This document shows positions 26,801 to 56,845 of a stretch of DNA of 64,000 nt, in pieces; the first letter of the stretch is position 1, and every line of letters starts with the position of its first letter. The position numbers were made by a program, and so were the translations under genes. The notes under the pieces are model-generated. The model saw only the letters and a list, made by a program, of their open reading frames with translations, did not search any database and was not told the DNA's origin. Source of the stretch: the human T2T-CHM13v2.0 reference genome, Homo sapiens; NCBI RefSeq assembly GCF_009914755.1, contig NC_060933.1. One strand, written 5' to 3'.

Positions 26801-27849
26801 CAGGCAGCAAGAAAAGAGAGTTGGGACTAAGTCCAGTACTGTTTTCTTAATCCCCACGTCTCCTCTACCCCTCCCTGGGCTTCTGCCCTGCCGAGTGCCT
26901 CTCTTGCCTGCCTTCCTCCCCTTGTATGACCCTGGGCCGAGGAGGAATAGGTCCTCAGATAGAGTCCAGTCTAGAAAAGGCCAGGCTACGGAAATACCTA
27001 GTTGAGTGGCCTCGGCTAAGTCACTGAATGGCCGGAGGGTCATTGCCCTTCCTCTCTGGTCTGAGACCTATCTTCTTGTGATTTTTTTTTTTTTTTTTTT
27101 TTTGCTACATTCATTCAATCAACAAATATTTGCTGAATGACCACCTGTGTGTCAGGCACTGTGCTGGGCATGGGGATGTAGTAGTAAAGAAGACAGGTGG
27201 CCGGGCACGGTGGCTCACGCCTTTAATCCCAGCACTTTGGGAGGCCGAGGTGGGTGGATCACGAGTTCAGGAGTTCAAGACCAGCCTGGCCAAGATGGTG
27301 AAACCCCGTCTCTACTAAAAATACAAAAGTTAGCCGGGCGTGGTGGCAGGCGCCTGTAATCCCAGCTACTCGGGAGGCTGAGGCAGAGAATTGCTTGAAA
27401 CTGGGAGGCGGAGGTTGCTGTGAGCTGAGATCGCACCACTGCACTCCAGCCTGGGTGACAGAGTGAGACTCCGTCTCAAACAAAACAAAACAAAACAACC
27501 AACAAACAAGACAGGCACCTTGTCTGCCCTCTGAGAGGTAGGGGTAGAGCTGGGAGGATCAAAAGAGAATAGTGAGATTCTTACTATAAATGGAGCAGGC
27601 TGGCTGGAAGAAGTAGAAGGTGTCAAGAAAGGGCAATCAACCCAGTGTGGGAGGTTGGAAATAGCTGCCCCAGAGCTCTGACATCCCAGTCAAGGCCCAG
27701 TACTGAGCTGTAGTCGGTTTGAGTAAGGGGAAAGACAGTTTTGGGGCTGGGCTGACTGTATAGGAGGGAGTGACCAGAAATAAGTGGGGTGAAAGTTTCC
27801 TCTGGTTGAAATGTGAGGAATGGATACCCCTCTTCTCTCCCTCATCCCA

Positions 27850-30250
27850 CCCTCTTTCTCCCTCTCATTCTTGTCTTCCCTTGTCTGAGCCACATAGAGA
27901 GAGCAGACAGAGAGATCCATGGGTGCTAGGTGGTTTTATTGGAAGCACTGCAGTCTGGGAGTTCAGAAGCTATGCTTTCACCACGTTCACCCTTTCACTC
28001 ACATTCACACTCATGTTGACACTCCAGGCCTGGCTGGGTCAGGTCTGGTGCCGAGGAACTAGAGGCCTGGTCTTCCCTTCTGGTCCTTGGTTCCCCAGGC
28101 CAGGGCTGTCTCTGGCACTGTCATGGGCTAACTGCTGTGGCTCTTGCTCTGGGAAAGGAAGGAGAGGAAGGGCCATGGGCTGTAATCTTAGACAGGGCTC
28201 AGAGGGGGCAGACAGGACTGGGGAGGGCCAGGCTTTCCTTGGCAGAGGTCTTCCGCAGTCTCCAGTTTGTGCAATCCATCCAGGGCTGGTCTAGAGGCTG
28301 CCTTTCAGTGTGGTGAATCTGGAGTCAGAGAGAATGGAGCCATAGAACTCATCTTCCTGAAAGGCCCTGGTGTGAGGGGCAGATGCTGGGGACCAGATCT
28401 GGGAACCTGTTTTAGGGGCTTCCTTGTGGGAGGGATTGGGCAAGGAGAAGTGAAGGAAGTAACATGGTGAATGGAGACCTGGATGATGGAGGAAGTGATT
28501 GGGAGGGGAGGAGACTGGACATTCTCCACCCCGACTCATAGGACAAAGTGCCCTGCAGCCATCCCTGAAGAGGAGGTAGCAGAAGGCACCAAAAATGTTC
28601 CCAGGAATTAGGTGTTGATTTGCTAAGAGGCAGAGTCCCCAGAGTTGTTGGTATCTCCCAGAGCTAGGGAGTGAGTATTAGCTTTAGGGCTTAACATGGG
28701 AAGGCCATAGCCCTGACTGGAACTTGGGATATCTGTGTCCAGAGCTTTAGTGTTGCTCTCTACTCCACCCACATGCACTGTTCTCTTCTTCCTCTGGGAA
28801 GTCCAGGCTAGAGAGACAGAGCCTATAAAGAGAAGAGCAGCCAGAGGCTCCAGGACCCATCCAGGCACTGATACATACAGGAACAGCTGGGGTACAGGCA
28901 CATCTACATCACACAGGTGCACACAAAGGGCATAGGCATACCCACACCACACAGGCACACACATAGACTGCAAAGGAATACACACAATGCACAGGTATAC
29001 CCATGTCACACAGGACGTAAAGTCATCACAAGGGCACACCCATTTGGCATATGTACAGTCTCAGGTGCATATCAGTCTCAGGACCTGGATGTTGATATTG
29101 TGAAAGGAGAATAAATCTCAGAACCCCCAAATCATTCAACCAAGGGGAAAGTCAAGCTGGGAATTGTGTCAGGCAAACCTGCCTCTTGTTTTATTCCTAA
29201 AAGAGATAGCTACAAAGAAAAAGCTACATACCTCCCTCACAATTTGTCCACAGGGAAATTCCTTATGGGCCTCAAGATCTTTACCTTAAAACAGTTGTGC
29301 TGAATTTCACCCTGGCAATGTAAACTGATAGCTTATCTTCACAGGTGCAGGACAATAGACAGAACTCAAAGTCATCCCTCTGCTCACCTGAGACAAATGT
29401 GTATCTGATTGCTTCTTCTGCCCTATTTATGCAAAAATGCAGATCCACTGAGCCAGACTAAGGCATCAGTGTGACTATTCCTTTACTCCCCACTCCATGT
29501 AAATTGTGTATTCAGTGAAAGGCTGATCAAAGACCCCCAAAAATGCAGCCTTTTGTCTCTTATCTACCTATGACCTGGAAGCCCCCACTTCGAGTTGTCC
29601 CGCCTTTCCAGACTGAACCAGTGTACACCTTACACGTATTGATTGATGTCTCATGTCTCCCCAAAATGTATAAAACCAAGCTGTGCACCGACCACCTTTA
29701 GCACGTGTTGTCAGAACCTCCTGAGGCTGTATCATGTCATGAGTGTGTGCTCAACCTTGGCAAAATAAACTTTCTAAGTTGATTGAGACCCATCTCAGAT
29801 ACTTTTGGATTCACAACATGAACTCAGCTTCCTTTACAGACCCCTGAGACCTGCACATTGATCCCTGCCATGCCCCTCCGTACCGTTTAACCCCTGCCCC
29901 ATTTTACTCACTCATGGCAAGAAAACCAATATGCTGAGAAGAGGAGTGTTGCCACACACACAAGAGGCCATGGAGGATGAGCAGAGATGGACAAATGAGG
30001 AGAGTCCCTGGGAGCAGCAGGTGTGCATGGGTGTGCAGGAGTCCTTCTGCTTGTGTGGAGTCTGTGAGACTGTGTGTGAGGTTGGATGGGGAGAGCAAGC
30101 AGGAGAGGGATCATGATCATGAGGGCGAGGGAGTCCTTGGAAGACTGAGGGTCCATGAGTGTGTGTGGATCTGTAGGAGGCTGTGGCTGTCTCCTATTTA
30201 TGGCCCCCTAAAACTTTCATTTTCTACGTTCAGAAACTTCCTTCCCTAAT
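27850..30250 (-). pseudogene. Unprocessed CCL19-like chemokine pseudogene (promoter, 4 exons, 3' UTR)
   Basis: Collinear with CCL19: TATA segment ctcctatttatggcc (30191-30205), exon 1 29971-29912, exon 2 28663-28540, exon 3 28318-28238, exon 4 28148-28128, AATAAA 27935-27940. Carries a stop, a frameshift and lost splice donors. Confidence 0.85.
29099..29815 (+). mobile_element. Solo ERV1 LTR (MER4A-like) in intron 1 of the CCL19-like pseudogene
   Basis: TGTGAAAGGAGAATAAATCTC...TTCACA termini, internal AATAAA, imperfect flanking ATAT/ACAT. Confidence 0.75.
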
Positions 30251-30985
30251 GGTGTGTAATAAAGAATTTGACTGCCTTTTGTCCCTGGCTCCTGAGAGGG
30301 AGACTAAACCTTTGGAATTTCCCAAGTAATAGGAGTGTCTTTATTACTCATGAGCCCCTTGGAACACACCTGGGTTTATGCTAAGAGATGAGATGGCTCA
30401 GGTTAGAGGTTGGTCACAGTAAAGACCAACCATGTGATTAGAGAGTTGAGACTTTGGGCCAGGCTGACCTCTGGGGAGGAAGGGGGCGCTGGAGATTGAA
30501 TTCAGGTATGTGGCCAATAATTCAATTATGCTGATGTAAGGAAATCTCAAAAAAAACTCTGGACACCAAAGCTCATAAAACTTTCTGGTTGATGAACACA
30601 TTGATGTCCCAGGAGGCTGATGCACCTTATGTCTCCACAAGGAGAAACCACTGAGAGAAGCTCTGCATTTGAGACCCTCCTAGACTTCATCCTGTGTGTC
30701 TTTTCATTTGGCTGTTTCTGATTTATACCCTTAATAAACTAATTAAACACAGCACTTTCCTGAGTTCTGTGAGTCACTCTAGCAAATTATCAAAACTGAC
30801 GGGTTTTGGGAACTTCTCAGACTTGTAGCCAGTTGGCCAGAAATGTGGGTGGCTTGGAGACCCTACTTGTGGCTGGTATCTAAACTGGGGACAGTCTTGT
30901 TGGGGACCTTTCCCTTAAACCTGTGGAATCTGGTGCTAACTCTACGTGGCTAGTGTCAGAAGTGAATTGCAGTCCATGAGTTGGT
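30250..30985 (+). mobile_element. MER21-like LTR
   Basis: Motifs such as ttcctgagttctgtgag, ctagcaaattatc and gtgtcagaagtgaattg; similar to the element at 55.9-56.8 kb. Confidence 0.55.
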
Positions 30986-32336
30986 AGCAGAATACTTTCC
31001 CACTGGATAGCTCCCCATCGCCTCTCTCTCCCTTTTTGTGGAGGAAACTCTTTTCTCTTTCACAACTCTCCGCAGTAGACTGCACCTGTTTTTCACTTTT
31101 TGGCTTCAGCTCCGAGAATTTCAGCAATAAGCAGTTTGGACAAGGGGAGGAGAGTTTGCACTATTACCATTAGGGGAAGATTTGCAAGGTTTGTGATGTT
31201 GCTCCTTTGGAGGCATTTGAGCCATCAGTCTCAAGGCTGGGAGTCAGGGTTTGGTTCAAGATTAGGGTCAGAGGTAGGAATGTGTCTCCTCCCTAGGTTC
31301 CTCACTGCCAGCTCTTCTCTGTAATACTAAGATACCTGGGAGTAGGAGGAGTGGGAAAGATGGGACATAGCCACCCACTAGATTCCCTGAGGGACAATCA
31401 CAAGAGCAGGGTAAGGATGAGAAGGTCCTCTCCCAGATTCTCCAGACCTCCCTGGGCCTATCACAGTGCCTATATATCCACCATCTGAGATCCATTCCTC
31501 CCTTGGAAAGTGAAGCTAAAGGGAACATTCTTTGGAAGCAGGTTCAGCTCCCCTATCTCTCATCTCTGGACTCTAGGACTTCACCTTCCTGGCCCAGCCA
31601 GCACTGTCCCTCTCCCTTATTGACCCATTTTCCTATGCCCCAGAGCTGAGTTAGAATAGCTGGAGGAGAACTTGGCCTAGAACATGCCCATTCTCTACCG
31701 TGGCCTCCCTATCCTGGGAATTGAGAGGGATTTTTGAGGAGAGGGTTTGGTCTGCTCACAGAGTAACAGGAAAAGAAAGGAATGAGGGAGTCCTGAGAAG
31801 CAGGCTTACTGTGTACTGGTTGCCAATTTGTCTGAGTCCAGTGGGAGAACACATCCAACAAGTTATATGAAATGGATTTATTACTCTCAGGTAGGCAGCA
31901 AGGGAAACAGAATCCCAGGATTAATTGTGAGGCAGCCCCCAAGGCTCAGGAAAGCTGCCCAGGGCAGATGGCTTCATCTGCCTATGCTGCACTTGCACTG
32001 CAGCCAAGGACTCCAGAAAGCAGCCTGCCTTGGGTTTTATACCCCAGGGCAATGTGAATTCCTGGGCTAAAACATTGAAGGATATTGTTTCTGGGGTGGG
32101 ACTAGAAGAGAGCCTGTTCCTTGTCTGTTTCTGTCACCTCTTCCTTATCTCAAGATTTTGCATTCCAAGTGAGAAAGGGAGGAGAACTGGGTCAGTGTAC
32201 GGTCACCCAGAGAACTGTTCTGCCAGACCCAAGAGATAGACCTCTCAGAAGACACTATTGTGGAGTGCTATTCTGTTTCCCATTCCAGATCTAGAGTATA
32301 TAGTGGAGCAGATTTAATTGCCTGTATTTTTCTGCC

Positions 32337-32380
32337 TCATCCATCCATCCATCCATCCATCCATCCATCCATCCATCCAT
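32337..32380. repeat. (CCAT)n tetranucleotide microsatellite
   Basis: About 11 units, directly visible. Confidence 0.95.
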
Positions 32381-33908
32381 GTGTCTATATGTCTACTCAT
32401 CTTTATCTCTTCATCAGCCCATTCTTCCTTCTTTCATCTTTCATTTATTTTTTCATATATTCATTGTGACCTGTTCATCTGTATGTTCAACCATTATTCA
32501 TTTATTGTTTCCCTTCATTTGTTTGTCTCTCAGTTATGGTAATAATTAACATTTATGATACTTAAGTGCCAGGCACCATGCAAAATGCTTTAAATTCATT
32601 GTCTCATGACAAATCTATGAAGTGGATTGCTGTGGGCTGTTTTTGTTCATGCAGACCACTTTTCTACTTTTCTATACCCCTTTTTGTGGTTCCTGTAGGA
32701 AACTCCTTTCCCACTTAACATGGTCTTGGTGGGGCTGTCAGCTACAGTGCTCTGATCAGAGTACCCCTTTTCCTGGCCACTGTGATAGACTGAAGAACTG
32801 AGTATGTATCACAAGTACAGTTAACCAGAGCTTTCTATGAGATTTGATGTTTGGATGCTAGGAGAAAGAGAGTCTCTTTTAGATCAATCAATATAAAAAT
32901 TTAGGCTTAAGGCTTCTAGTGGCCATATTTCTTGCTACTAGAAGAGCACCTGTATCTTAGACCATTTTCTGTTTCTTAACAGAATACCTAAATCTGGGTA
33001 ATTTATAAAGAAAAATAATTTATTTCTTACAGTTATGGAGGCTGAGAAGTCCAAGATTGAGGGGACATACCTGGTGAGATCCTTCTTGCTGGTGGGGACT
33101 CTCTGCAGGGTCGTGAGGTGTGGCACAGGGCATCACATGGTGAGGGGGCTGAGTGTCCTAGCCCGTGTCTTTTCTTAGGAAGCCTCTAGTCCCACACCCA
33201 TAATAACCCATTACTCCATGGATGGATTCATCCATTCATCAAGGCAGAGCCCTCATGACCCAATCACTACTTAAAGGCCCCACCTTTCAATATTGCTACA
33301 TTTGGGATTAAATTTCTTTTATTTATTTTTAATTTGTTATATATTTTTAAGAGACGAAGTCTCACTCTGTCGCCCAGGCTGGAGTGCAGTGGCATGATCA
33401 TGGCTCACTGCAGCCTTGAACTCCTGGTCTCAGCCAGTTCTTCTGCCTCAGCTTCCCAAGTAGCTGCGACTACAGCTACAGGTGTGCACCACCATGCCCA
33501 GCCAGGGATTAAATTTCAGCATGAGTTTTGGAGGGGACAAATATTCAAACCATAGCAACCTGTCTATGACAGGAATGAGATCCCTACACAAAAAGATTAG
33601 TCAGAGCATGGTGGCTCATGCCTGTAATCCCAGCACTTTGGAAGGCCAAGGCGGACAGATCACCTGGGGTCAGAAGTTTGACACCAGCCTAGCCAACCTA
33701 GTGAAATCCTGTCTCTACTAAAAATACAAAAATTAGCCAGTCGTGGTGGCATGTACCTGCAGTCCCAGCTACTCGAGAGATGAGGCAGGAGGATTCTCTA
33801 ACCTGGGAGCGGGAGGTTGCAGTGAGCCGAGATCGTGCCACTGCACTCCGGTCCGGGCTACAGAGCGAGACTCTATTTCAAAAAAAAAAAAGAGAGGAAT
33901 TGAGGTAA

Positions 33909-47400: not shown

Positions 47401-50400
47401 GAGATAGCCCCAGCTGTCTTGAGAACTGGATGTGCTCCTGGTGGGGGGCGGGGCATGGTGGGAAAAGGCCATGTTCAGTTCCATTTTTGTTAATCATATG
47501 TGTATTGGGGCTTATTTCATGCCAGACCCTGGCAGAGCAATGTTAGCAATGGAGTTGGATGAGGCCCAACCTCTCCCTTGGGAGCTCCCTCAACAAATAG
47601 GAAAGGGAGATTTTCATCCCCCAAAGGCTAAGAGCAACCTGAGAAGGGATGTCAGATACTTTTAGGGAGATATTGGCTGCTGAGATATTGGCCTTTAGGA
47701 TGGGAGGTATCACCCAGCTGCAGGCCTTGAACCTGTAACAGATGCCATGTGCGCTAGAGAAGAAGGTGTCTATCTATAGGCAGGCAACAAGGCCTCCACA
47801 TCCTAACTGGGAAGCTAGGAGTCCACACCACTCCTCAGAGATCTGACAATCTCTGGTGGGCTCCTGGCCCACCAGAACTCTGGATAAATGAAAATGCAAC
47901 AATTGTCAGTGACTCACCGTGAAAGAGGAAGCAGATGTTGATTAAATGTAGTCACAGTGCTGAGAATGTTAGAGTGGGGCAGGATGCTCAGTTGCTCCAA
48001 TTGCTCAGATTGCTGGGCAATTGTACCTGGCAGGGAGATAAGGGGGTAAGACCCAGTGCCCAGGATGGGTTGGTATGGTTGGGGGGTGGGAAAAAGAGGA
48101 AGGCAGAAAGCTAGGATGGAAAGCATTGGCTGTAGAAGGGGTGGGGAGGGTTGCATGCCAGCTCCCCTGGGACTCTGGTGTCCACCCCTTCAGATTTCCT
48201 CCAAGTTCTTCATTTCCCAGGCTTCCAGGGTCAATTGAATCCAAGGCACTTCACTAGCTCCTAGATTATTTTCTCTTTTTATGAGCCTCAGCATCTCCTT
48301 TGATCTCAGAGGGTGGCCCCAGGGAGAGTTTTCTGTATGTGCAAGACTTTGTGGGGTGTCTATGCAAATGCTGGCGGTTTAGCATGAGAACCAAAGATTC
48401 AGGAGCCAAGTCTTTGTTTGGAAGGAGTCTCAAAAATCAAGCTCCTCTCTCCCATCTGACAAATGGGGAAACTGGATCTCCGGGTGCAGAGTGGAAAAGG
48501 AACTTGCCCAGAGTCACACAATGAGTGGGGCAGAGACAGGATCATGGGACTCTGGCCCAGGCAGTGAATTCAGGATTTGCTCTGTACCTCCTGGCGGCAG
48601 TGTCATGGAGGTAGCGTCCAGGGGCCCCTATCCTGGTAGCATCTTCTTCAAGGTTCCCACTCTCACCTGCCCTGCTCCGTCTGTGTGTTCCTCCGATAGT
48701 CCAGAAAGATCACTTTTGTTGCTTCTGTGGCAGGCTGACTTCCTCTAAATGTCACTGGCACTGAGAAGGATTTCAGGCAATGTGCTCCCCTCCCATGTGT
48801 GTTTGTCCTCTGAGACACCAGCCTGCTGGGATGCGGGGCACGGGGTCCACAGCTGGGAGACCTAGAACGCCATGGCTGGCTGGCTTGGTGGATGGATGAA
48901 AGAATGGCTGGGTGGGAAGTGCGTGAGTGGACAGTTGGCTGGATGGAGGTCTGATGAATGCAGAAACAGCTGAATGAATGGATGCATGGATGCATGAATG
49001 GATGGGTTATTGCAGCTTTTCTTGAAAACTATCCCTATCCCTCCCACCCACCTGGTATTCCAGGTGATTCTGAGACCTGGGATACCCAAGGTTTTGAGCA
49101 CCTGCATCTGGGAGCAGAGGAGAGGAAGAGGATGTCATGCTCTCAGTGAGGAGGGGCTTTCACAACTCCCTCACCATTTCTCCCTTTTCAAGGCCTGCCC
49201 AGGCCTGGTTTTGTTGCTGGCTGACGTATACCCGATATAATGACACCTCTCTTCCCAAGCAAGGGTGCTCAATCTGGCCTCCTTGCTGTCATCTGACCCC
49301 AGTGGCACAGCCTTGTCACTCCCAGCTGGAGAGGCCCTTAGAGAACACTGTCTGGAGGCTAGCCTGCTTCCCCAGGAGACTTCTCAAGTACGAGGCACTC
49401 ACTCTGTACAGAGAAGCCCTGTGGGATGCTCCAAGAGTCACACGGCTCTCATCTCCCAGAGCTGAGATTCCTTTCTGGTCTCATCTGGGGAGATGTCTCT
49501 GGTCTCAGTGTTGCCTTTGAGCCCTGGAGCCCATGTAGACTGTAGGGGTGGTGGTAGGGCTCCTCTATGTGGAATCTCCTGTGCTTCCCTGGCTACTCCT
49601 TCTTCCACCCCGTGGGCCTCTCTCCTGTCTCTGACCTCTGACTCCCAGGTCTGTCTGTCGGTGTCCCTGAGAGGCATGGCCCCAGGATTGCAAAGATGGG
49701 GCTGGACCTTGCTCAGTTTGGCTGAGAGAGGAAGGCTGGCCTGGAGGTCAGATTCTGTATGGACAGAATGAACAGATGGACCCTCAGCCCTGGCTGCTGA
49801 GCCTTTCCTCACATATTTATTCATTCTCTAAACAAATATTTATTGAGGGACTGCCTTGTGCCAAGCAGCATGCTGGACACCACAAAAACAGTGGAACCCA
49901 AAATAGATGTGATCCCAGTCCAAGAACATGGACAAATTTGGACAAACCAGCAACTATAAGTCAGGGTGATGAATGCTGTGAGGGGCCACTGCAGGAGGCT
50001 ACCTAACCCAGCCTGGGGTCAGGGAAGGCTTCCTGGAGGAAGAGGCGTCTGGACCCAGATGGGAAGCCAGGTGGGCAGAGGAGAGAGAAGAGTGTGCCAG
50101 ACCAAGGGAAGGGCATGGGTGGATGGGTATTTTCCCCCAGGCAGTAGAGCTGGGCCCTTTGCCCCACTCCACCTCCCCCAGCCGTGAGAGCTGGTTCCCC
50201 ACAACTCCCTTCCCCCCAGTGACACTGGATTCCTTAGACACCTGGATGCTTGAACACCTGCCTTGGAGAGCAAAGAGTGGGAGGCATGAGACGCTGGCTC
50301 ATTCAGGGAACTGACCCAAGCTTAGTGTCGCTGAACTATGGAAAGCAATGAGGCTGATCCTGAGAGCATCAGGTTGTTAAGTGGAGGTGAGCAAGGAGAC

Positions 50401-50515
50401 CCCCTAGGCCACAGAAGAGAAAATAGATCCTGCCATTCCACCTCCCCCTTCCTATTCCTGTCCACCTGGCTAGACAGCAAACGGACAGCAGACAGATCTA
50501 TGGGTGCCAGGTGCC

Positions 50516-50608
50516 TTTTTTTTTTTTTTTAAGGCTAGTTAAGCAGTAGGAGTGGAGAAAGAACAAAGAAATCTGTAACAGGTTGTGATCAATTAGTTGT
50601 AAACACCA
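50516..50608 (-). pseudogene. 5'-truncated hY3 (RNY3) RNA retropseudogene with A-tail
   Basis: Minus strand TGGTGTTTACAACTAATTGATCACAACCTGTTACAGATTTCTTTGTTCTTTCTCCACTCCTACTGCTTAACTAGCCTT plus A15 matches the hY3 sequence. Imperfect target-site duplication. Confidence 0.9.
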
Positions 50609-50614
50609 GGCGGC

Positions 50615-50620
50615 TTTATT
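50615..50620 (-). terminator. CCL19: CCL19 polyA signal AATAAA
   Basis: TTTATT on the + strand, about 220 nt past the stop. Confidence 0.85.
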
Positions 50621-50841
50621 GGTAGCATTGCAATCTGGGGGTGGAGCAGCTTTACTCTGACCACACTCACCCTCTCGCTCACACTCACACTCACACACAC
50701 CCCAGGCCCTGTCCTGGCTGGTCAGGTCTGGTGCAGAGGAGCTGGAAGCCTGGTCCTTCCTTCTGGTCCTCGGTTCCCCAGGTTAGGTAATAATTCACAA
50801 TGCTTGACTCGGACTCCGGGCTCCCTCTGCACGGTCATAGG

Positions 50842-51443
50842 TTAACTGCTGCGGCGCTTCATCTAGAGGAGGAAGGAGAGGAAGGATCATGGGCTGGAAT
50901 CTTAGACAGGAGCTCAGAGGGAGGAGACAGGGCCAGGGAGGGCCAGGCTTGCCTTGGCTGAGGTCCTCTGCAGTCTCTGGATGATGCGTTCTACCCAGGG
51001 CTGGTCTGGGGGTGCACAGAGCTGGCGGCCCCTCAGTGTGGTGAACCTGGGGTGAGAGGCCGGAGAGAATGGAGCCCCAGAATCCAGCATGCCTGGGGAC
51101 CATGTCTGGGAACCTGTTTCAGGGATTTCCTTGAAGGGGTTGGGCTTGGCATGGAGAAGGGGAATAAGAAGGTGGGAGTCTCAACAGGGGCTAAAACGGG
51201 AGATGAGGCTAGACACCCTCCCCACAACTCACACTACAGCAGGCACCCTGCAGCCATCCTTGATGAGAAGGTAGTGGAAGTTCCTCACGATGTACCCAGG
51301 GATGGGTTTCTGGGTCACAGACAGGCAGCAGTCTTCAGCATCATTGGTGCCACTCAGAGTTGGGGCTGGGATGGGGAAAGAAGGTGACAGGACACAGGGA
51401 CCCTTGAGGGTGGCATGGCCATGGCCCTAGCTCGGATTGAGGA

Positions 51444-51495
<52 letters not shown>

Positions 51496-52164
51496 TGGTG
51501 GGGTCGGGGAGGAGTTAGACCTGGTATTCAGCCATTATGCACCAATATGGCTCTGGCTCTACTGGTTGCTAAATATATTGTCATACTTCTAAACTGTTTT
51601 GTAAATAACCACTGCCCTGAGCCCCACAAATGACTTCCTGCTGCCCTGATCACCCCAACCTCTCTCCCAGGACAATCCAGCAAGTAAAGAGTTAATGCAG
51701 GTCACAGTGTGGGAGGGGCGTGGGGTAGGGTAGGCTGGTGTTAGGAGCCTTATTAATTGCTAAAATTTTTGAATATCAGCCTTGGCTTAGTGTCTGCCAT
51801 TCTCCCTACCTTAAGCAAATCTCCTTCTGCCTGGGAAACGGAGGCAGCAGGAAATAGAGCTTGCAGAGACAGTCACAGCCATAGGCCCCAGGATGTGCTA
51901 AAAGACACACCCGCATTGGGATTCAGGGGCACAGGGACACCCACACTTACAGGCACACATGCAGGGACCTGCCAGGCTCACCGAAATATACAGACCTAAG
52001 CATTTGCCTGAACTCACCATGTCCCTTACGTCCAGTGCCAAGCAATCTGAGATCTAGACATTACCCACTGCCAGCCCCCCACTGCCTCTGACCCTGACTC
52101 TCCCTTCAGCCTTACCTGGGGAAGTCCAGAGAACCAGCAGGCTGAGGGCCAGTAGCAGGGCCAT
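50842..52164 (-). CDS. CCL19: C-C motif chemokine 19 (MIP-3beta/ELC), 98 aa
   Basis: Exons 52164-52116, 51365-51233, 51046-50953, 50862-50842 (49+133+94+21=297 nt). MALLLALSLLVLWTSPAPTLSGTNDAEDCC...MKRRSS*. Intron 3 is GC-AG. Confidence 0.98.
51448..51494. repeat. (TG)~23 microsatellite in CCL19 intron 1
   Basis: Directly visible. Confidence 0.95.
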
Positions 52165-52322
52165 GGAGGGTGAACAGAGGCAGGCCAACGGTGAATGTGT
52201 GAGCGCCAGCTGTCTGGGTGTGTGCAGGATCTGTGTGAGGCTGCAGGGCGACTGGGATGCAGGGGTGAAATGCAAGGTGTGAGTGATGTGAGGCTGGGAA
52301 TGTGAGCCCTGCAGCTGACTCC

Positions 52323-52364
52323 TATTTATGGCCAGAGCTTCACTTTCTCTGCCTGAAATTCCCC
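52323..52364 (-). promoter_or_regulatory. CCL19: CCL19 proximal promoter: TATA-like box, ISRE-like and NF-kB sites
   Basis: Minus strand: ATAAATA at 52323-52329, GAGAAAGTGAAGC at 52337-52349, GGGGAATTTC at 52355-52364. Confidence 0.8.
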
Positions 52365-53770
52365 TTCATGTCCCATTCTGTGATTCCCCTGTTGCCCCCC
52401 TCTTTCTGGCAGAATCGCACCCTGCCCCCCTTCTTCCCCCTGCGGTTGCCCTTTCCTTCTGCTTTCCTTGGCTCCTGCTCTGAGAACTTAAGTCTGCAGT
52501 CTGGCCCAGTAAAGGGGGCTGTGCACTGTTTCTCCAGAGAGAGGGATTGCCCTGTCATCCCATTGATGGCATTTGCATCATCAACCATGAAGCTGGGGTT
52601 CAGAAGTGATGGTCAAAGGTGGGGCCCACAGTGAGGAACTGTGCTCCCTTCCTTAGGTTTATCCCTTGTCCTCACTGGTGCTTCTTTCTTGGGCTGGTGG
52701 TGAAGAAGGCTCCCTGGCACCCTCAGGACAACCATGAGATCCTGGGGTGGCCTCCAAGGTCATCACTGTGCCTGCCCACTATGTGGGAACCAGTCCTTCC
52801 CTTGGGGCAAGCAGAGCTGAAAGGCCAGGTACCTTGGGAGGAGGCCCAGGACCCCCATCCCACATCTCAGGCCTCTGGGGCTCAGCAAACCCTCCCCTTC
52901 CTCTATTTACTGTTTTCCTATGTCCAACACCTGGGTCAAAGGAACAGCTGGAGGGAGACTGGCTTGGAATAGCCCCCTTCATTTTCCCCCTTTTCTCAGT
53001 CCTGGGAACCAAGAGGGGATTTCTAAGGAGAGGGGCTGGCCAGCTCATATTCAGACAAATCTTAAAATTTCAAGGAATCGGCCGATGGGGGAGGGGACAA
53101 GTGACTTCCCATCCTTATGAGAAAGGTCAGAAGAGAAGGCCTTGAAAGAGAAACTAAATGTGAAACGCCCAGTCACCCGTCGTCACCCAAACCCTAGACC
53201 CTCTTTTGGATGGAGAGAGGGAGGGGGAACATTTCCCTCTTAAATTTCTGACTTAGCTTCTTTCCATTCATTAATCATAATAATAGTAATGGTATTTTTG
53301 ATTGTTTACTATGTGCTAGGCTCTATGTCAAGGACTTTACCACTATTACCTTGCTTAACTTTCCCAAAACAATACCATTGATGTAGTTTTTCTTATTTTC
53401 ACATTATTATTCTTATTTTACACATAAGGAACATGAGGCTCAGAGCACAAAGCCACACAGCTAGTAAGTACTGGAGCATGATTTGGACCCAGGTGTGCTC
53501 TAGGGTTTGCAGTCTTTACCTCCACTCCACACCTCCTGTCTGCCACTTGGTCATGGCACAGCACGGGTAGTCACGGTGCAGAGGAGGGAGACTCTGCAGA
53601 CAGAGCGCCTAGCTTGGGATTCAGATTCCACCACTTACTAACTGCGACAAGGTGAAAATTCTCCAGTTTCTGTGTCTTAGTGTCCTTATTTGTAAAATGG
53701 GAATGGTAGAAGATCTACTTCTTAGGATTAAGTGAGGAACCCTGAGTAAAGCCCTTAGCTTAGAGGCTGA

Positions 53771-54184
<414 letters not shown>

Positions 54185-55247
54185 TGATCTATCCATTCTT
54201 CTGTCCATGATGGTTCTGGTTATTCTGTTTGCCCCAGCCTATCCATTCTCCACTCTTCACGGCCCTGCTCTGCTCCCTGGAAGGCTGACCTCTGCAGATA
54301 GCATTACTTAGGGTCACCTGCTTTCTGGCTTCTGTTTGGGGCTGGCCCATGGGAAGCAGCAACTGATCAGTGGTGGAAGGAGAGAGGGGTATTAATTCCC
54401 CAAATCCTTCATCTTGCTGCAGTTCTGGCAGTGAATAATTTCCCCTGTGGCAGTTGTTCTCAAAGAGTAGCCTTTGGGCAGCAGCAGCAGCATCACTTGG
54501 GAGCTTGTTAGAAACACGAATTCTTAGATTTTACTTCCCACTTACCACATCTGAGACTCTGAGGATGGGGTCCAGCAAACTGCATTTTCACATACCCTCC
54601 AAGTGACTCTGATATGTGCTAAAGTTTGAGATCCAAACGAGCCTCAGGGATACCATCAAATATACCTCATCACAGGAGTCTCAGGAGGAGAATAGAGAGA
54701 ACAGGGCATTAAAAAAATTGAAGAAATAATGACAAAACATCTGAAATCTGATGAAAAGTATGTATATACATATCCAAGAAGTTCATTACGCCTGGCCTGC
54801 TATGTTGTTATGTTTATCAGAGATCTTTGTTTCTTTGTGTGGCTGTAAGTTATTACTTTTTGTCCTTTTGTTTCATTCTGAAGGTCTCCCTTTAGCATTT
54901 CTTTGTTTGTTTTTTGTTTTTTCTTTCTCCCTTTAGCTTTTCTTATGGGCAGATGTACTATTAATGAACTTCCTAAGTTTTGTTTATCCAGAACAGGAGT
55001 TTGAGACAAGCCTGGCCAACATGGTGAAACCCCATCTCAACTCCTGACTACTCAGCTACTCAGGAGGCTGAGGCAGGAGAATCCCAAGGCTCACCTTGGC
55101 CTCCCAAAGTGGTCTACAGATTGAGGCCCACTGATCTACAGTGATCCTTTTGGGTTGCCTCCCTTCCACGGGTCTATCTCTATTCTTTTTTTTTTTTTTT
55201 TTTTTTTTTTTTTGATACAGAGTCTCAATATGTCACCCAGGCTCTAG

Positions 55248-55945: not shown

Positions 55946-56845
55946 ATGTGATATTGTGAAATATATATCTGGTCTTCATCTTCCTTTTCTGACATATAGC
56001 TCCTAAAATCCTTGGAATCTTGGGAGAGATTGTGTCTTTTGTATGCTAATGAGATAACTGGTGGCTGGGGGCCTCTAGACAGCCTCTGGATGGGAGCTAG
56101 TCAGCAGAAGAACCAGCCACATGGTTAGAGAGTTGGAACATTCTCTAACATTCTGTAGTGGTGGGGAGTCCCACCCACTCCCCACCTCTGGGTAGGGGAA
56201 GAGGGGTTGAAACTTGAGTTGATAAACCAATGGCTGATGATGTAATCAATTATACCTAGGTACTGATACTTCCATTAAAAACCCGAAAGGACTAAGTTGG
56301 GGTGGGGGCTTCTGGATAGCTGAAAACATGGAGGTTCTGGAGGAGGGTGCCCAGAGAGGGCATGAAAGCTCCACACCTTTTTTTCCCCATACCTCACTCT
56401 ATGCATCCCTTTCATCTGGCTGTTTATCTGTTCTTTGTAATATCCTTTATAATAAATGGGTAAGCATAAGTAAGTGTTTCTCTGACTTCTGTGAGCCGCT
56501 GTAGCAAATTAATTGAACCCCAGGTGGGTTGTGGAAACCCTTATTTATAGCTGGTCAGTCAGAAGCATAGGCCACACTCTGTGCTTGCAATTGGTATCTG
56601 AAGTAGGGGGGCAGTCTTGTGGAACTGAACCCTCAACTTGTGGGATCTGATGCTACCTCCAGGTAAATGATGTCAGAATTGAACTGAATTAGGGGACACC
56701 CATCTGGTGTCCACTGAGGAACTGTCTGCCAGATAATTTCTTGGTGGGGAGAAATCCCCACACACTTATGGGTACCCAGAGGTCACAGAAGTATTGAGTG
56801 GTGAGAGGGAGTAGAGAGTAGGGAAACATGGTTTTCCCTGTATCC
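55946..56845 (+). mobile_element. MER21-like LTR
   Basis: tgtgatattgtgaaatatatat...ctcctaaaatccttggaatc...gtcagaattgaactgaatt. Confidence 0.65.

What the first reader, a model, noticed from the sequence alone, without database searches (positions are those of the whole stretch)
27850..30250. Fossil CCL19 paralog with its promoter, about 22 kb from CCL19
Every part of CCL19 has a collinear counterpart in the same orientation. The TATA segment ctcctatttatggcc is identical, with an ISRE-like ctttcattttct next to it. The ATG is kept (29971; MASCVCGNTPLLSILVFLP*). Exon 2 reads ALGDTNNSGD-[1-nt deletion in the CC motif]-CLLANQHLIPGNIFGAFCYLLFRDGCRA versus CCL19 TNDAEDCCLSVTQKPIPGYIVRNFHYLLIKDGCRV. 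Exon 3 has a 13-nt deletion removing the fourth Cys. Donors 2 and 3 are lost, and exon 4 (SKSHSS*), the 3' UTR and AATAAA remain. I do not recognise this as an annotated gene. The diverged mature region raises the possibility that it was once a distinct CCR7-family chemokine, perhaps still intact in other mammals.
Basis: seen in the sequence. Interest (0 to 1): 0.75.

Follow-up and report, generated by a model that had tools for sequence, protein, structure and literature searches.

The report
Ancient dead copy of CCL19
About 22 kb from the human chemokine gene CCL19 lies an old, broken tandem copy of that gene, introns and core promoter included, whose tail is now part of a predicted non-coding RNA; it is an ordinary kind of gene relic that seems to have gone unnamed.

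Summary
On the minus strand, window 27920-30244 is collinear with CCL19 (50593-52370). This covers the core promoter, 5'UTR, ATG, all four exons, blocks of all three introns, the 3'UTR and AATAAA. About 2 kb of upstream sequence was copied too. In the whole T2T genome the copy matches only itself and CCL19, and it does not match CCL21. It cannot encode a chemokine: it has a stop in exon 1, a 1-nt deletion in the CC motif, a 13-nt deletion that removes Cys4, lost splice sites and no Pfam IL8 hit. It is old. Non-coding K2P is 0.35-0.5, three interspersed repeats were inserted after the duplication, and a rabbit protein model matches its intron 1/exon 2 junction. One of those repeats cuts the core promoter off at about -70. 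The divergence of the mature region fits neutral decay. No intact orthologue was found; a dugong 'CCL19-like' model lacks Cys3. I read it as an ancient unprocessed CCL19 pseudogene, partly reused as lncRNA LOC124902146. Interest is modest.

The parts
31100..32438 (-). Copied upstream region. Three collinear blocks (31100-31299, 31447-31758, 32339-32438) are homologous to CCL19 upstream 52468-52659, 52751-53047 and 54159-54258. They are interrupted by an interspersed repeat at 31794-32169.
   Evidence: One search gives 61-66% identity with E down to 1.6e-23. One search gives local scores of 34, 71 and 29 against shuffle maxima of 14, 14 and 16. One search shows 31100-31760 has no other match in the genome, so the similarity is not a shared repeat. 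One search shows 31794-32169 is a repeat family (452 first-look candidates, 40 scored, 69-77% identity). One search shows that repeat is absent from the CCL19 side.
30245..30998 (-). Interspersed repeat of about 750 bp, inserted after the duplication at the point equivalent to about -70 of CCL19. It contains a perfect kB-like GGGAAATTCC (30323-30314) that is not homologous to the CCL19 kB site.
   Evidence: One search found 1304 first-look candidates; 40 were scored, at 67-72% identity over query positions 103-856. One search found no counterpart in CCL19 52300-53000 and one other copy in the window, at 56386-56686.
30186..30244 (-). Core promoter remnant. It holds a degenerate kB-site remnant (GGAAGTTTC, opposite CCL19 GGGGAATTTC), the ISRE-like GAAAATGAAAGT (30224-30213) and the TATA-containing 15-mer (30205-30191).
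   Evidence: The kB and ISRE consensus sequences are recalled, not tested.
29908..30173 (-). Exon 1-like segment. It comprises the 5'UTR remnant, the ATG at 29971-29969, a signal-peptide remnant with a net +15 nt relative to human CCL19, an in-frame TGA at 29914-29912, and a retained GT donor at 29907-29906 in phase 1. The 5' end (30173) is only the position equivalent to the CCL19 TSS.
   Evidence: One search gives a score of 23 against a shuffle maximum of 17. One search shows non-anthropoid CCL19 proteins also have the longer signal peptide.
28670..29907 (-). Intron 1-like segment. Collinear blocks are 29893-29844, 28930-28785 and 28738-28697. A repeat of about 720 bp (29099-29815) with TG...CA ends and an internal AATAAA was inserted after the duplication. 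Exon 1 of lncRNA LOC124902146 (29026-28773, GT donor at 28772-28771) lies here.
   Evidence: One search gives a score of 21 against a shuffle maximum of 15. One search found 4669 first-look candidates; 40 were scored, mostly at 78-84% identity. One search shows the repeat is absent from CCL19. The lncRNA exons come from the hub's table, and the splice dinucleotides are read.
28540..28669 (-). Exon 2-like segment. It has a 1-nt deletion in the first Cys codon of the CC pair (between 28634 and 28632), a 2-nt deletion near 28545, and a donor changed to AT (28539-28538). Cys3 (DGC) is still readable.
   Evidence: One search gives 15/28 identity to CCL19 exon 2. One search gives no Pfam hit, whereas CCL19 exon 2 scores 24.4 bits.
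28319..28539 (-). Intron 2-like segment: 70.6% identity, K2P 0.39.
28238..28318 (-). Exon 3-like segment. The acceptor AG (28320-28319) is kept and is used by the lncRNA. A 13-nt deletion (between 28298 and 28297) removes Cys4. There is an in-frame TAG at 28293-28291. The donor reads GA where CCL19 has GC.
   Evidence: The lncRNA exon 27920-28318 comes from the hub's table.
28149..28237 (-). Intron 3-like segment, retained in the lncRNA. It is the most similar segment (85.4% identity) and lies inside the low-divergence tract 28423-28156.
   Evidence: One search finds 17.1% differences inside the tract and 31.1% outside, reached by 2 of 300 permutations.
27920..28148 (-). Exon 4-like segment: SKSHSS, a TAG stop at 28130-28128, the 3'UTR, and AATAAA at 27940-27935. 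The 3' end coincides with the end of the lncRNA.

Best explanation
This is an unprocessed pseudogene of CCL19. It was made by a tandem, same-orientation segmental duplication of at least about 4.5 kb. The copied segment ran from about 2 kb upstream, through the whole gene, to just past the poly(A) site.

The duplication is old. It post-dates the marsupial split, predates the anthropoid-specific changes in CCL19, and probably predates the human-rabbit ancestor.

The copy then decayed. An interspersed repeat was inserted about 70 bp upstream of the start site and separated the TATA and ISRE-like core from its upstream region. The reading frame collected a nonsense codon, three deletions (1, 2 and 13 nt, the last removing Cys4) and lost splice sites. 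No CCL19 CpG is kept as a CpG in the fossil.

A tract of about 270 bp around exon 3 and intron 3 is markedly less diverged than the rest. I take this as a later gene-conversion event with CCL19; that is an inference.

Today the locus makes no chemokine. Its exon 3 acceptor, retained intron 3, exon 4 and poly(A) signal form the second exon of the predicted lncRNA LOC124902146, whose first exon lies in old intron 1.

Shown: homology, lesions, repeat insertions, uniqueness in the genome. Inferred: age, gene conversion, order of events. Not tested: transcription and any regulatory activity.
For: Collinear homology of every gene part, with shuffle controls.

Uniqueness. Genome-wide, the 750-nt 3' half matches only itself and CCL19. 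Neither the fossil nor CCL19 shows DNA similarity to the CCL21 gene.

Lesions. These are documented. The fossil exon 2 and exon 3 translations have 0 Pfam families, while the CCL19 exons hit IL8 at 24.4 and 29.5 bits. Among 13 ATG-ORFs of 40 aa or more in 27850-30350, none is a chemokine ORF.

Age.
- K2P is 0.53 for the 5'UTR, 0.46 for exon 2, 0.39 for intron 2 and 0.35 for the 3'UTR.
- Three repeat insertions are absent from CCL19. Two of them are only 67-77% identical to their genomic relatives.
- None of the 13 CCL19 CpGs is kept as a CpG, and CpG o/e is 0.07 against 0.21.
- At 12 of 13 sites where human CCL19 differs from the eutherian majority, the fossil has the majority residue or a one-step derivative of it. 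This is my count on the alignment and the translation.
- In the tree the fossil lies inside the eutherian clade (support 100/96) and outside the human+Aotus pair (100/99).
- Residues 2-68 of rabbit protein A0A5F9DUS5 (P0103) match the translated fossil intron 1/exon 2 junction: 31/67 identical, E 6e-11. tblastn places that part on the fossil and not on CCL19.

lncRNA. The exon borders coincide with the fossil's exon 3 acceptor and its poly(A) site (hub table).
Against: No genome of another mammal could be read here, so the age rests on divergence, repeat logic and two protein models from other species.

The protein tree is largely unresolved. AU tests do not reject fossil+anthropoid CCL19 as one clade (p 0.33).

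The exon 3 part of the rabbit model looks like canonical lagomorph CCL19. That model could be chimeric rather than evidence of gene conversion.

The low-divergence tract could reflect something other than conversion. Its support is 2 of 300 permutations, on a tract chosen by the scan itself.

The lncRNA is a predicted model (XR_), and no expression data were seen.

I could not consult GENCODE or pseudogene databases, so 'unannotated' is shown only for the RefSeq table supplied.
Confidence: 0.9

Rival explanations
1. The relic is a selected non-coding element. Either the TATA/ISRE-like core acts as an inducible promoter or enhancer in the CCL27-CCL19 cluster, or the pseudogene-derived lncRNA has a function. 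This would add to, rather than replace, the pseudogene origin.
For: The 15-nt TATA segment is identical in both copies although the surrounding promoter is only about 52-62% identical. The fossil's ISRE-like motif fits the recalled consensus exactly; that strict pattern occurs only twice in 64 kb, against 0.28 expected. RefSeq models a spliced, polyadenylated lncRNA that reuses the fossil's signals (hub table). lncRNAs with AL162231.x names are reported from expression studies, and one is paired with CCL27 in psoriasis, but I could not map any of them to this place.
Against: No RefSeq enhancer or silencer feature is listed at 30.2 kb in the hub table. The modelled lncRNA starts at 29026, not at the fossil promoter. 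Identity runs of 13-16 nt also occur elsewhere in the alignment, so the 15-mer is not far beyond what neutral decay allows. No expression, chromatin or conservation data were available.
Confidence: 0.15
2. The copy is a fairly recent (primate-lineage) duplication that decayed unusually fast. On this reading the rabbit and dugong models come from independent, lineage-specific CCL19 duplications.
For: The AU test does not reject fossil+anthropoid CCL19 as a clade (p 0.33), nor dugong-like+manatee CCL19 (p 0.197). The fossil shares ..TSAK with primate and colugo CCL19, and the dugong model shares LLK and ISAK with afrotherian CCL19. The four residues shared by the fossil and the dugong model all fall at codons where CpG decay could give parallel changes; that is an inference.
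Against: Non-coding K2P is 0.35-0.5 and intron 1 is nearly unalignable. Two old repeat families (67-77% identity to relatives) were inserted after the duplication. The fossil keeps the pre-anthropoid state at 12 of 13 sites. The rabbit model matches the fossil's intron-derived sequence and not that of CCL19. The residues shared with lineage-specific CCL19 lie mostly in the exon 3 tract, where conversion is suspected.
Confidence: 0.08
3. The locus still encodes a secreted CC chemokine, or another protein, through unannotated splicing.
For: The ATG, a hydrophobic leader, Cys2, Cys3 and several conserved motifs (IPG, YLL, DGCR, FTTL, DQPW, TSAK) are still readable. A 113-aa ORF (28964-28623) runs from old intron 1 into exon 2, and a rabbit model has a similar reading.
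Against: There is a stop two codons before the exon 1 donor. The CC motif is frameshifted, Cys4 is deleted, exon 3 has a stop, and donors 2 and 3 are lost. There is no Pfam IL8 match. The fossil exon 2 translation had no hit among 5.8 billion or 1.84 billion proteins.
Confidence: 0.01

Closest known systems
CCL19 (human, window 50593-52301, minus strand), the parent gene
   Same: Four-exon layout; TATA-containing 15-mer; ISRE-like element; 5'UTR; ATG; phase-1 first intron; short C-terminal exon 4; 3'UTR; AATAAA. Orientation is the same and about 2 kb of upstream sequence is shared.
   Different: The fossil has a nonsense codon, deletions of 1, 2 and 13 nt, lost splice sites, three repeat insertions, no CpGs left at any of the 13 CCL19 CpG positions (4 CpGs elsewhere in the fossil), and no IL8-domain match.
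Mouse Ccl19 pseudogenes in the expanded Ccl27-Ccl19-Ccl21 cluster
   Same: They are unprocessed CCL19 copies made by segmental duplication inside the same chemokine minicluster. PMC3749542 (passages seen) states 5 Ccl19 pseudogenes in C57BL/6J.
   Different: The mouse copies are described as products of a mouse-lineage expansion of whole three-gene units, including inverted repeats. The human relic is a single, much more diverged, same-orientation copy of CCL19 alone. I found no CCL27- or CCL21-like sequence copied with it.
Named human chemokine pseudogenes such as CCL3P1
   Same: A duplicated chemokine gene relic lying next to its parent in a chemokine cluster. CCL3P1 is named in PMC10189238 (passages seen).
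   Different: Those have gene symbols and are discussed in print. For this one I found no symbol and no paper.
Dugong 'C-C motif chemokine 19-like' (P0089) and rabbit A0A5F9DUS5 (P0103)
   Same: Both are divergent CCL19-like models that exist beside a canonical CCL19 in their orders. P0089 shares QHL-IPGNI, AFCY and VDC with the fossil and is its sister in the ML tree (support 65/72). P0103 matches the fossil's intron 1/exon 2 junction.
   Different: Both are open reading frames in their databases. P0089 has lost the original Met, Cys3 and the conserved Trp, and scores 24.2 bits on IL8 against 63.3 for manatee CCL19. Orthology to the fossil is not established, and their genomic positions could not be checked.

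Membership tests
Unprocessed (duplicated) pseudogene of CCL19 | Homology to the parent extends through introns and flanks, so it is not a retrocopy. | tested here: met
   Introns 2 and 3 are 70.6% and 85.4% identical. Intron 1 blocks align. Promoter and upstream blocks align. The downstream flank 27851-27940 matches 50438-50521.
Unprocessed (duplicated) pseudogene of CCL19 | The parent is CCL19 specifically, and no other chemokine. | tested here: met
   A whole-genome DNA search returns only the fossil itself and CCL19. There is no similarity to the CCL21 gene. The short exon 4 is of CCL19 type. At protein level, exon 2 matches CCL19 exon 2 at 54% but only at chance-level genome-wide E (0.72), and an unrelated chr16 hit scored 0.46. 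The DNA evidence therefore carries this point.
Unprocessed (duplicated) pseudogene of CCL19 | Disabling lesions and no intact ORF. | tested here: met
   TGA at 29914-29912; 1-nt, 2-nt and 13-nt deletions; TAG at 28293-28291; donors read AT and GA. No chemokine ORF among 13 ORFs.
Unprocessed (duplicated) pseudogene of CCL19 | Neutral evolution of the copy. | tested here: inconclusive
   Pairwise dN/dS against CCL19 is 0.50 (bootstrap 0.28-0.91). Values of 0.65 or more occur in 21% of bootstraps, so immediate death is not excluded. CpG loss is complete at the 13 CCL19 sites. No outgroup DNA was available.
CC chemokine (Pfam IL8, PF00048) | Adjacent CC pair plus Cys3 and Cys4 in one reading frame. 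| tested here: not met
   The first Cys codon of the CC pair is frameshifted and Cys4 is deleted. Only Cys2 and Cys3 are readable.
CC chemokine (Pfam IL8, PF00048) | Match to the family profile. | tested here: not met
   The fossil exon 2 (46 aa) and exon 3 (20 aa) readings have 0 families at E<=10. The CCL19 exons score 24.4 and 29.5 bits.
Transcribed pseudogene / lncRNA | A transcript that uses the relic's own processing signals. | tested here: inconclusive
   The borders of RefSeq model XR_007080304.1 (hub table) coincide with the exon 3 acceptor AG (28320-28319) and with the site about 20 nt after AATAAA. A GT donor follows 28773. The model is predicted, and no RNA data were seen.
Interferon/NF-kB-responsive promoter of CCL19 type | kB site(s) and an ISRE next to the TATA box, with inducible activity. 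| not testable with these tools
   Motif level only. The ISRE-like element is intact and the homologous kB position is degenerate. The perfect GGGAAATTCC lies inside the inserted repeat. The consensus sequences and the CCL19 promoter biology are recalled; a paper search for 'CCL19 promoter' + ISRE found none.

The most novel reading that the evidence does not exclude
Early placental mammals had a second, tandem CCL19-type gene between CCL27 and CCL19. It worked for a time and then died independently in several lineages, while gene conversion with CCL19 kept refreshing its 3' half. It may still be coding or semi-functional in a few mammals (the dugong 'CCL19-like' model is the lead). In humans its interferon-type core promoter and its pseudogene-derived lncRNA would retain a regulatory role in the CCL27-CCL19-CCL21 cluster.
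Probability: 0.1. Interest if true: 0.55.

Novelty: new member of a known kind. Interest (0 to 1): 0.33.

Why it matters
The human CCL27-CCL19-CCL21 minicluster is usually drawn with three genes. A fourth, ancient CCL19-derived member would show that the tandem duplication seen on a large scale in mouse also happened, once and much earlier, in the lineage leading to humans.

There are three practical points.
- The relic explains the origin of a predicted lncRNA, LOC124902146.
- The 3' tract of about 270 bp is roughly 83% identical to CCL19, so it is a possible partner for gene conversion and a possible source of cross-mapping for probes or short reads aimed at CCL19 exon 3, intron 3 and the 3'UTR.
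- It gives comparative genomicists a dated marker with nested repeat insertions and discrete lesions, useful for tracing chemokine cluster evolution.

It is not a surprise in kind, because duplicated chemokine pseudogenes are common.

Tried and rejected
Searches that gave nothing or did not apply
- The sigma-70 promoter and terminator scan found no more than shuffles did, and it does not apply to a human locus.
- Rfam found no family in 27000-32600.
- The composition profile was unremarkable.
- The fossil exon 2 reading had no hit at E<=10 with the search for homologous proteins ('longer'), 0 hits among 1.84 billion representatives, and no usable ESM Atlas hit. With a 33-46 aa decayed query these are weak negatives.

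Alignment problems
- The global MAFFT alignment mis-aligned exon 1 and intron 1, and it aligned the inserted repeat to the CCL19 promoter. I replaced those parts with local alignments. The 'promoter' and 'ex1 CDS' rows should therefore be disregarded.
- I first took GGGAAATTCC at 30323-30314 for the counterpart of the CCL19 kB site. One search shows it lies inside an interspersed repeat.

Phylogeny
- The tree used 50 rows: 48 of the 106 retrieved proteins, one per genus, plus the two rows from the window. I left out isoforms, fusions, partial sequences, rows without a source name (except P0090), P0103 and the shark sequence.
- The tree is mostly unresolved (25 of 47 inner branches open). Both AU tests were non-significant.
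- The bootstrap script for exons 3-4 stopped on a division by zero, so only the exon 2-4 and exon 2 intervals are reported.

Literature
- 'CCL19 pseudogene' occurs in 2 papers, both on mouse.
- CCL19P1 and LOC124902146 each had 0 occurrences in the 20 of 50 papers listed.
- 9p13 + chemokine + pseudogene + CCL19 gave 4 papers, 3 listed. I checked passages only in PMC10189238 and saw none on this locus; the other two I judged irrelevant from their titles.
- CCL19 + 'unprocessed pseudogene' gave 1 paper, unrelated.
- 'CCL19 promoter' + ISRE gave 0 papers.
- AL162231.x lncRNA names exist in papers, but I could not map them to window coordinates.
Full report
**1. The observation**

Read on the minus strand, window 27.9-30.3 kb visibly parallels CCL19.
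- blastn aligns 27928-28347 with 50608-51082 at 72.0% over 478 nt (E 3.7e-74), and 28386-28608 with 51093-51303 at 67.8% (E 3.5e-11).
- Softer scoring joins these into one HSP, 27928-28669 vs 50608-51365 (67.9% of 800, E 1.9e-94), and adds 29966-30040 vs 52159-52229.
- The 5'UTR/ATG region scores 23 in a local alignment, against a shuffle mean of 10.2 and a maximum of 17 in 200 shuffles.
- The core promoter scores 20, against a mean of 9.2 and a maximum of 16 in 500 shuffles.
- The 15-mer GGCCATAAATAGGAG occurs exactly twice in the window, even with two mismatches allowed: at 30205-30191 and at 52333-52319, both on the minus strand.
- Intron 1, which the global MAFFT alignment could not handle, contains three collinear blocks. 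The largest is 28930-28785 vs 51966-51824, with a score of 21 against a shuffle maximum of 15.

- MASCVCGNTPLLSILVFLP* from the ATG at 29971;
- the two frames of exon 2 on either side of a 1-nt deletion in the CC codons;
- the 13-nt deletion in exon 3;
- SKSHSS*;
- AATAAA at 27940-27935.

**2. Anatomy and lesions**

*Exon 1-like.* It keeps the ATG, a GT donor (29907-29906) and phase 1. It has an in-frame TGA at 29914-29912 and a net 15 extra nucleotides relative to human CCL19. Part of that difference is on the CCL19 side: in the alignment of 25 mammalian CCL19 proteins, the anthropoid sequences have a signal peptide 4 residues shorter than all the others.

*Exon 2-like (28669-28540).* It has the 1-nt deletion in the first Cys codon of the CC pair and a 2-nt deletion near its end. 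AT stands where the donor GT should be. The position homologous to the intron 1 acceptor reads CT, although this depends on the alignment.

*Exon 3-like (28318-28238).* It keeps its acceptor. It lacks 13 nt, including Cys4, and reads FTTLKGSL* in the original frame. It is followed by GA, where CCL19 uses a GC donor.

*Protein-level checks.* The fossil's exon 2 and exon 3 readings hit no Pfam family, while the CCL19 exons hit IL8 at 24.4 and 29.5 bits. BLASTP of the in-frame part of exon 2 against CCL19 exon 2 gives 15 of 28 identities. None of the 13 ATG-ORFs of 40 aa or more in the region is a chemokine ORF.

**3. Extent and uniqueness of the duplication**

Upstream of the promoter, three further collinear blocks match CCL19 upstream sequence: 31100-31299, 31447-31758 and 32339-32438 against 52468-52659, 52751-53047 and 54159-54258. 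Their scores are 34, 71 and 29 against shuffle maxima of 14, 14 and 16. The stretch 31100-31760 has no other match in the whole T2T genome, so this is duplication and not a shared repeat.

Downstream, 27851-27940 matches 50438-50521, and 27109-27170 weakly matches 49819-49879.

Genome-wide, the 3' half of the fossil matches only itself and CCL19. Neither the fossil nor the CCL19 gene shows DNA similarity to the CCL21 locus, apart from Alu elements in the CCL19 flank. A genome-wide protein search with the 33-aa exon 2 reading found CCL19 exon 2 at 54% identity, but only at a chance-level E (0.72). An unrelated chr16 hit scored 0.46. The assignment to CCL19 therefore rests on DNA.

**4. Repeats inserted after the duplication**

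Three stretches of the fossil are interspersed repeats with many genomic relatives, and none has a counterpart at the homologous place in CCL19.
- *30245-30998.* 1304 first-look candidates; the 40 scored are 67-72% identical.
- *29099-29815 in intron 1.* 4669 candidates; the 40 scored are mostly 78-84% identical. It has TG...CA ends and an internal AATAAA.
- *31794-32169.* 452 candidates; the 40 scored are 69-77% identical.

It begins about 20 nt upstream of the ISRE-like element, at the position equivalent to roughly -70 of CCL19. Only a remnant of the kB site, the ISRE-like element and the TATA box are still contiguous with the gene. The perfect GGGAAATTCC at 30323-30314 lies inside the repeat and is not the CCL19 kB site.

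**5. Age**

K2P distances on the reliable parts of the alignment are 0.53 (5'UTR), 0.46 (exon 2), 0.39 (intron 2), 0.27 (exon 3), 0.17 (intron 3) and 0.35 (3'UTR). None of the 13 CpGs in CCL19 exon 2 to 3'UTR is a CpG in the fossil, and 7 of them read TG or CA there. CpG o/e is 0.07 against 0.21. The two older inserted repeats are as diverged from their relatives as the fossil is from CCL19, so the duplication is at least as old as those insertions.

The protein database turned out to hold mammalian proteins. CCL19 exon 2 retrieved 26 CCL19 orthologues, and a profile retrieved 106 proteins. On the alignment, human CCL19 departs from the eutherian majority at 13 sites. By my count, at 12 of these the fossil has the majority residue or a residue one nucleotide step from it. 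The examples are PGN, RAF, VD, K in ..RK, SK.HSS, ALG and the longer leader.

In an ML tree of 50 rows the fossil lies inside the eutherian clade (support 100/96, against marsupials and platypus) and outside the human+Aotus pair (100/99). The rest is unresolved.

A rabbit UniProt model (P0103, A0A5F9DUS5) matches the translation of the fossil's intron 1/exon 2 junction over residues 2-68 (31 of 67 identical, E 6e-11). tblastn of that protein on the window places this part on the fossil (28811-28479) and not on CCL19. It also shares NNS with the fossil where CCL19 has NDA.

I infer a duplication after the marsupial split and before the human-rabbit ancestor. Converting the K values to time relies on substitution rates that I recall, and gives roughly 90-160 My.

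**6. A less diverged 3' tract**

A scan finds that 28423-28156 (the end of intron 2, exon 3 and intron 3) has 17.1% differences, against 31.1% elsewhere. This is reached by 2 of 300 permutations. The tract includes an intron of a dead gene, so constraint is an unlikely cause. I favour a later gene conversion with CCL19. The rabbit model points the same way, or else is chimeric: its exon 3 part carries lagomorph-specific CCL19 residues (GLQL, PPEQ, VGR).

**7. Was it ever a distinct chemokine, and is it intact elsewhere?**

Nei-Gojobori dN/dS between the fossil and CCL19 is 0.50 over 74 codons (bootstrap 0.28-0.91) and 0.36 for exon 2 (0.14-0.84). If the copy had died at once, the expected value would be the mean of 1 and the CCL19 value, roughly 0.6-0.7. 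That lies inside these intervals. Exon 2 is not significantly more diverged than intron 2 or the 5'UTR. The 'diverged mature region' therefore needs no special explanation.

The supplement of Nomiyama et al. 2012 (PMC3568907; supplementary tables searched) lists one CCL19-group gene each in human, cow, elephant, opossum and wallaby, and two in mouse.

The best lead for a surviving copy is the dugong 'C-C motif chemokine 19-like' model (P0089). It shares QHL, AFCY and VDC with the fossil and is its sister in the tree (support 65/72). However:
- both are long branches;
- the shared residues could arise in parallel by CpG decay (an inference);
- the AU test does not reject dugong-like+manatee as a clade (p 0.197), nor fossil+anthropoids (p 0.33);
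- the dugong model itself has lost the original Met, Cys3 (DGC to HDF) and the conserved Trp, and scores only 24.2 bits on IL8 against 63.3 for manatee CCL19.

**8. What the locus does now**

The second exon of the predicted RefSeq lncRNA LOC124902146 (27920-28318) begins exactly at the fossil's exon 3 acceptor. It retains intron 3, whose donor is lost, and it ends about 20 nt after the fossil's AATAAA. The first exon (29026-28773) lies in old intron 1, 73 nt downstream of the inserted LTR-like repeat, and ends at a GT (hub table). The relic's 3' processing signals therefore appear to be reused. Whether the transcript or the stranded TATA/ISRE core has any function could not be tested.

**9. 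Novelty**

The RefSeq table supplied has no pseudogene here. Five paper searches found none that mentions a human CCL19 pseudogene, CCL19P1 or LOC124902146; for the larger result sets only the listed papers and some passages were examined. The reviews and surveys I opened (passages only: PMC3568907, PMC3749542, PMC10189238, bioRxiv 10.1101/526145) describe the human cluster as CCL27, CCL19 and CCL21. GENCODE-style lncRNA names AL162231.1-.4 occur in expression papers, but I could not place them on the window. I could not see GENCODE or pseudogene databases, so an existing entry there remains possible.

**Verdict:** a real and well-preserved relic of an ordinary kind, apparently unnamed. Its value is modest, mainly for the history of the chemokine cluster.

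Noticed in passing
window 50951-50952 (minus strand): CCL19 intron 3 begins with GC, not GT (AAG|GCAAGC), so it is a GC-AG intron. Several database 'isoforms' (for example chimpanzee 'CCL19 isoform 2', P0001) read through this intron (..SAKASLALPGPVSSL).
   Followed up: partly
alignment A2; window 52164-52116: Anthropoid CCL19 proteins (human, Aotus, Piliocolobus, Nomascus) have a signal peptide 4 residues shorter than the other eutherian CCL19s in the alignment, and they share several derived residues (PGY, RNF, MK.RSS).
   Followed up: partly
window 50515-50610: Just around its poly(A) site, CCL19 carries about 90 nt that the fossil lacks. The stretch ends in a run of 16 A and is flanked by similar short sequences. 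Homology to the fossil resumes after it (27851-27940 vs 50438-50521). It looks like a small retroposed insertion into CCL19 after the duplication.
   Followed up: no
window 30323-30314: A perfect kB-type decamer, GGGAAATTCC, sits inside the old interspersed repeat inserted upstream of the fossil promoter, about 120 nt from the TATA box.
   Followed up: partly
window 28623-28964 (minus strand): A 113-aa ATG-ORF runs from old intron 1 into the fossil's exon 2. Its last 62 residues are 46% identical to the N-terminal part of a rabbit 'uncharacterized protein' (A0A5F9DUS5). The likely reason is that both are translations of orthologous non-coding DNA.
   Followed up: partly
window 29099-29815: The repeat in intron 1 has one genomic relative that is 95% identical over 449 nt (chr1:202127630-202128081), while the other scored copies are 78-84% identical. 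This suggests a more recent duplication or conversion involving this copy or its relative.
   Followed up: no
window 53144-53155 (+ strand): The only other exact match in the window to the strict ISRE-type pattern GAAANNGAAAST lies about 850 nt upstream of the CCL19 start site.
   Followed up: no
proteins P0078, P0084, P0045, P0072 (equids); P0039, P0075 (guinea pig): Several species have more than one CCL19-type entry in the protein database. From the sequences seen, these look like isoforms or intron-retaining models of one gene rather than extra genes.
   Followed up: partly
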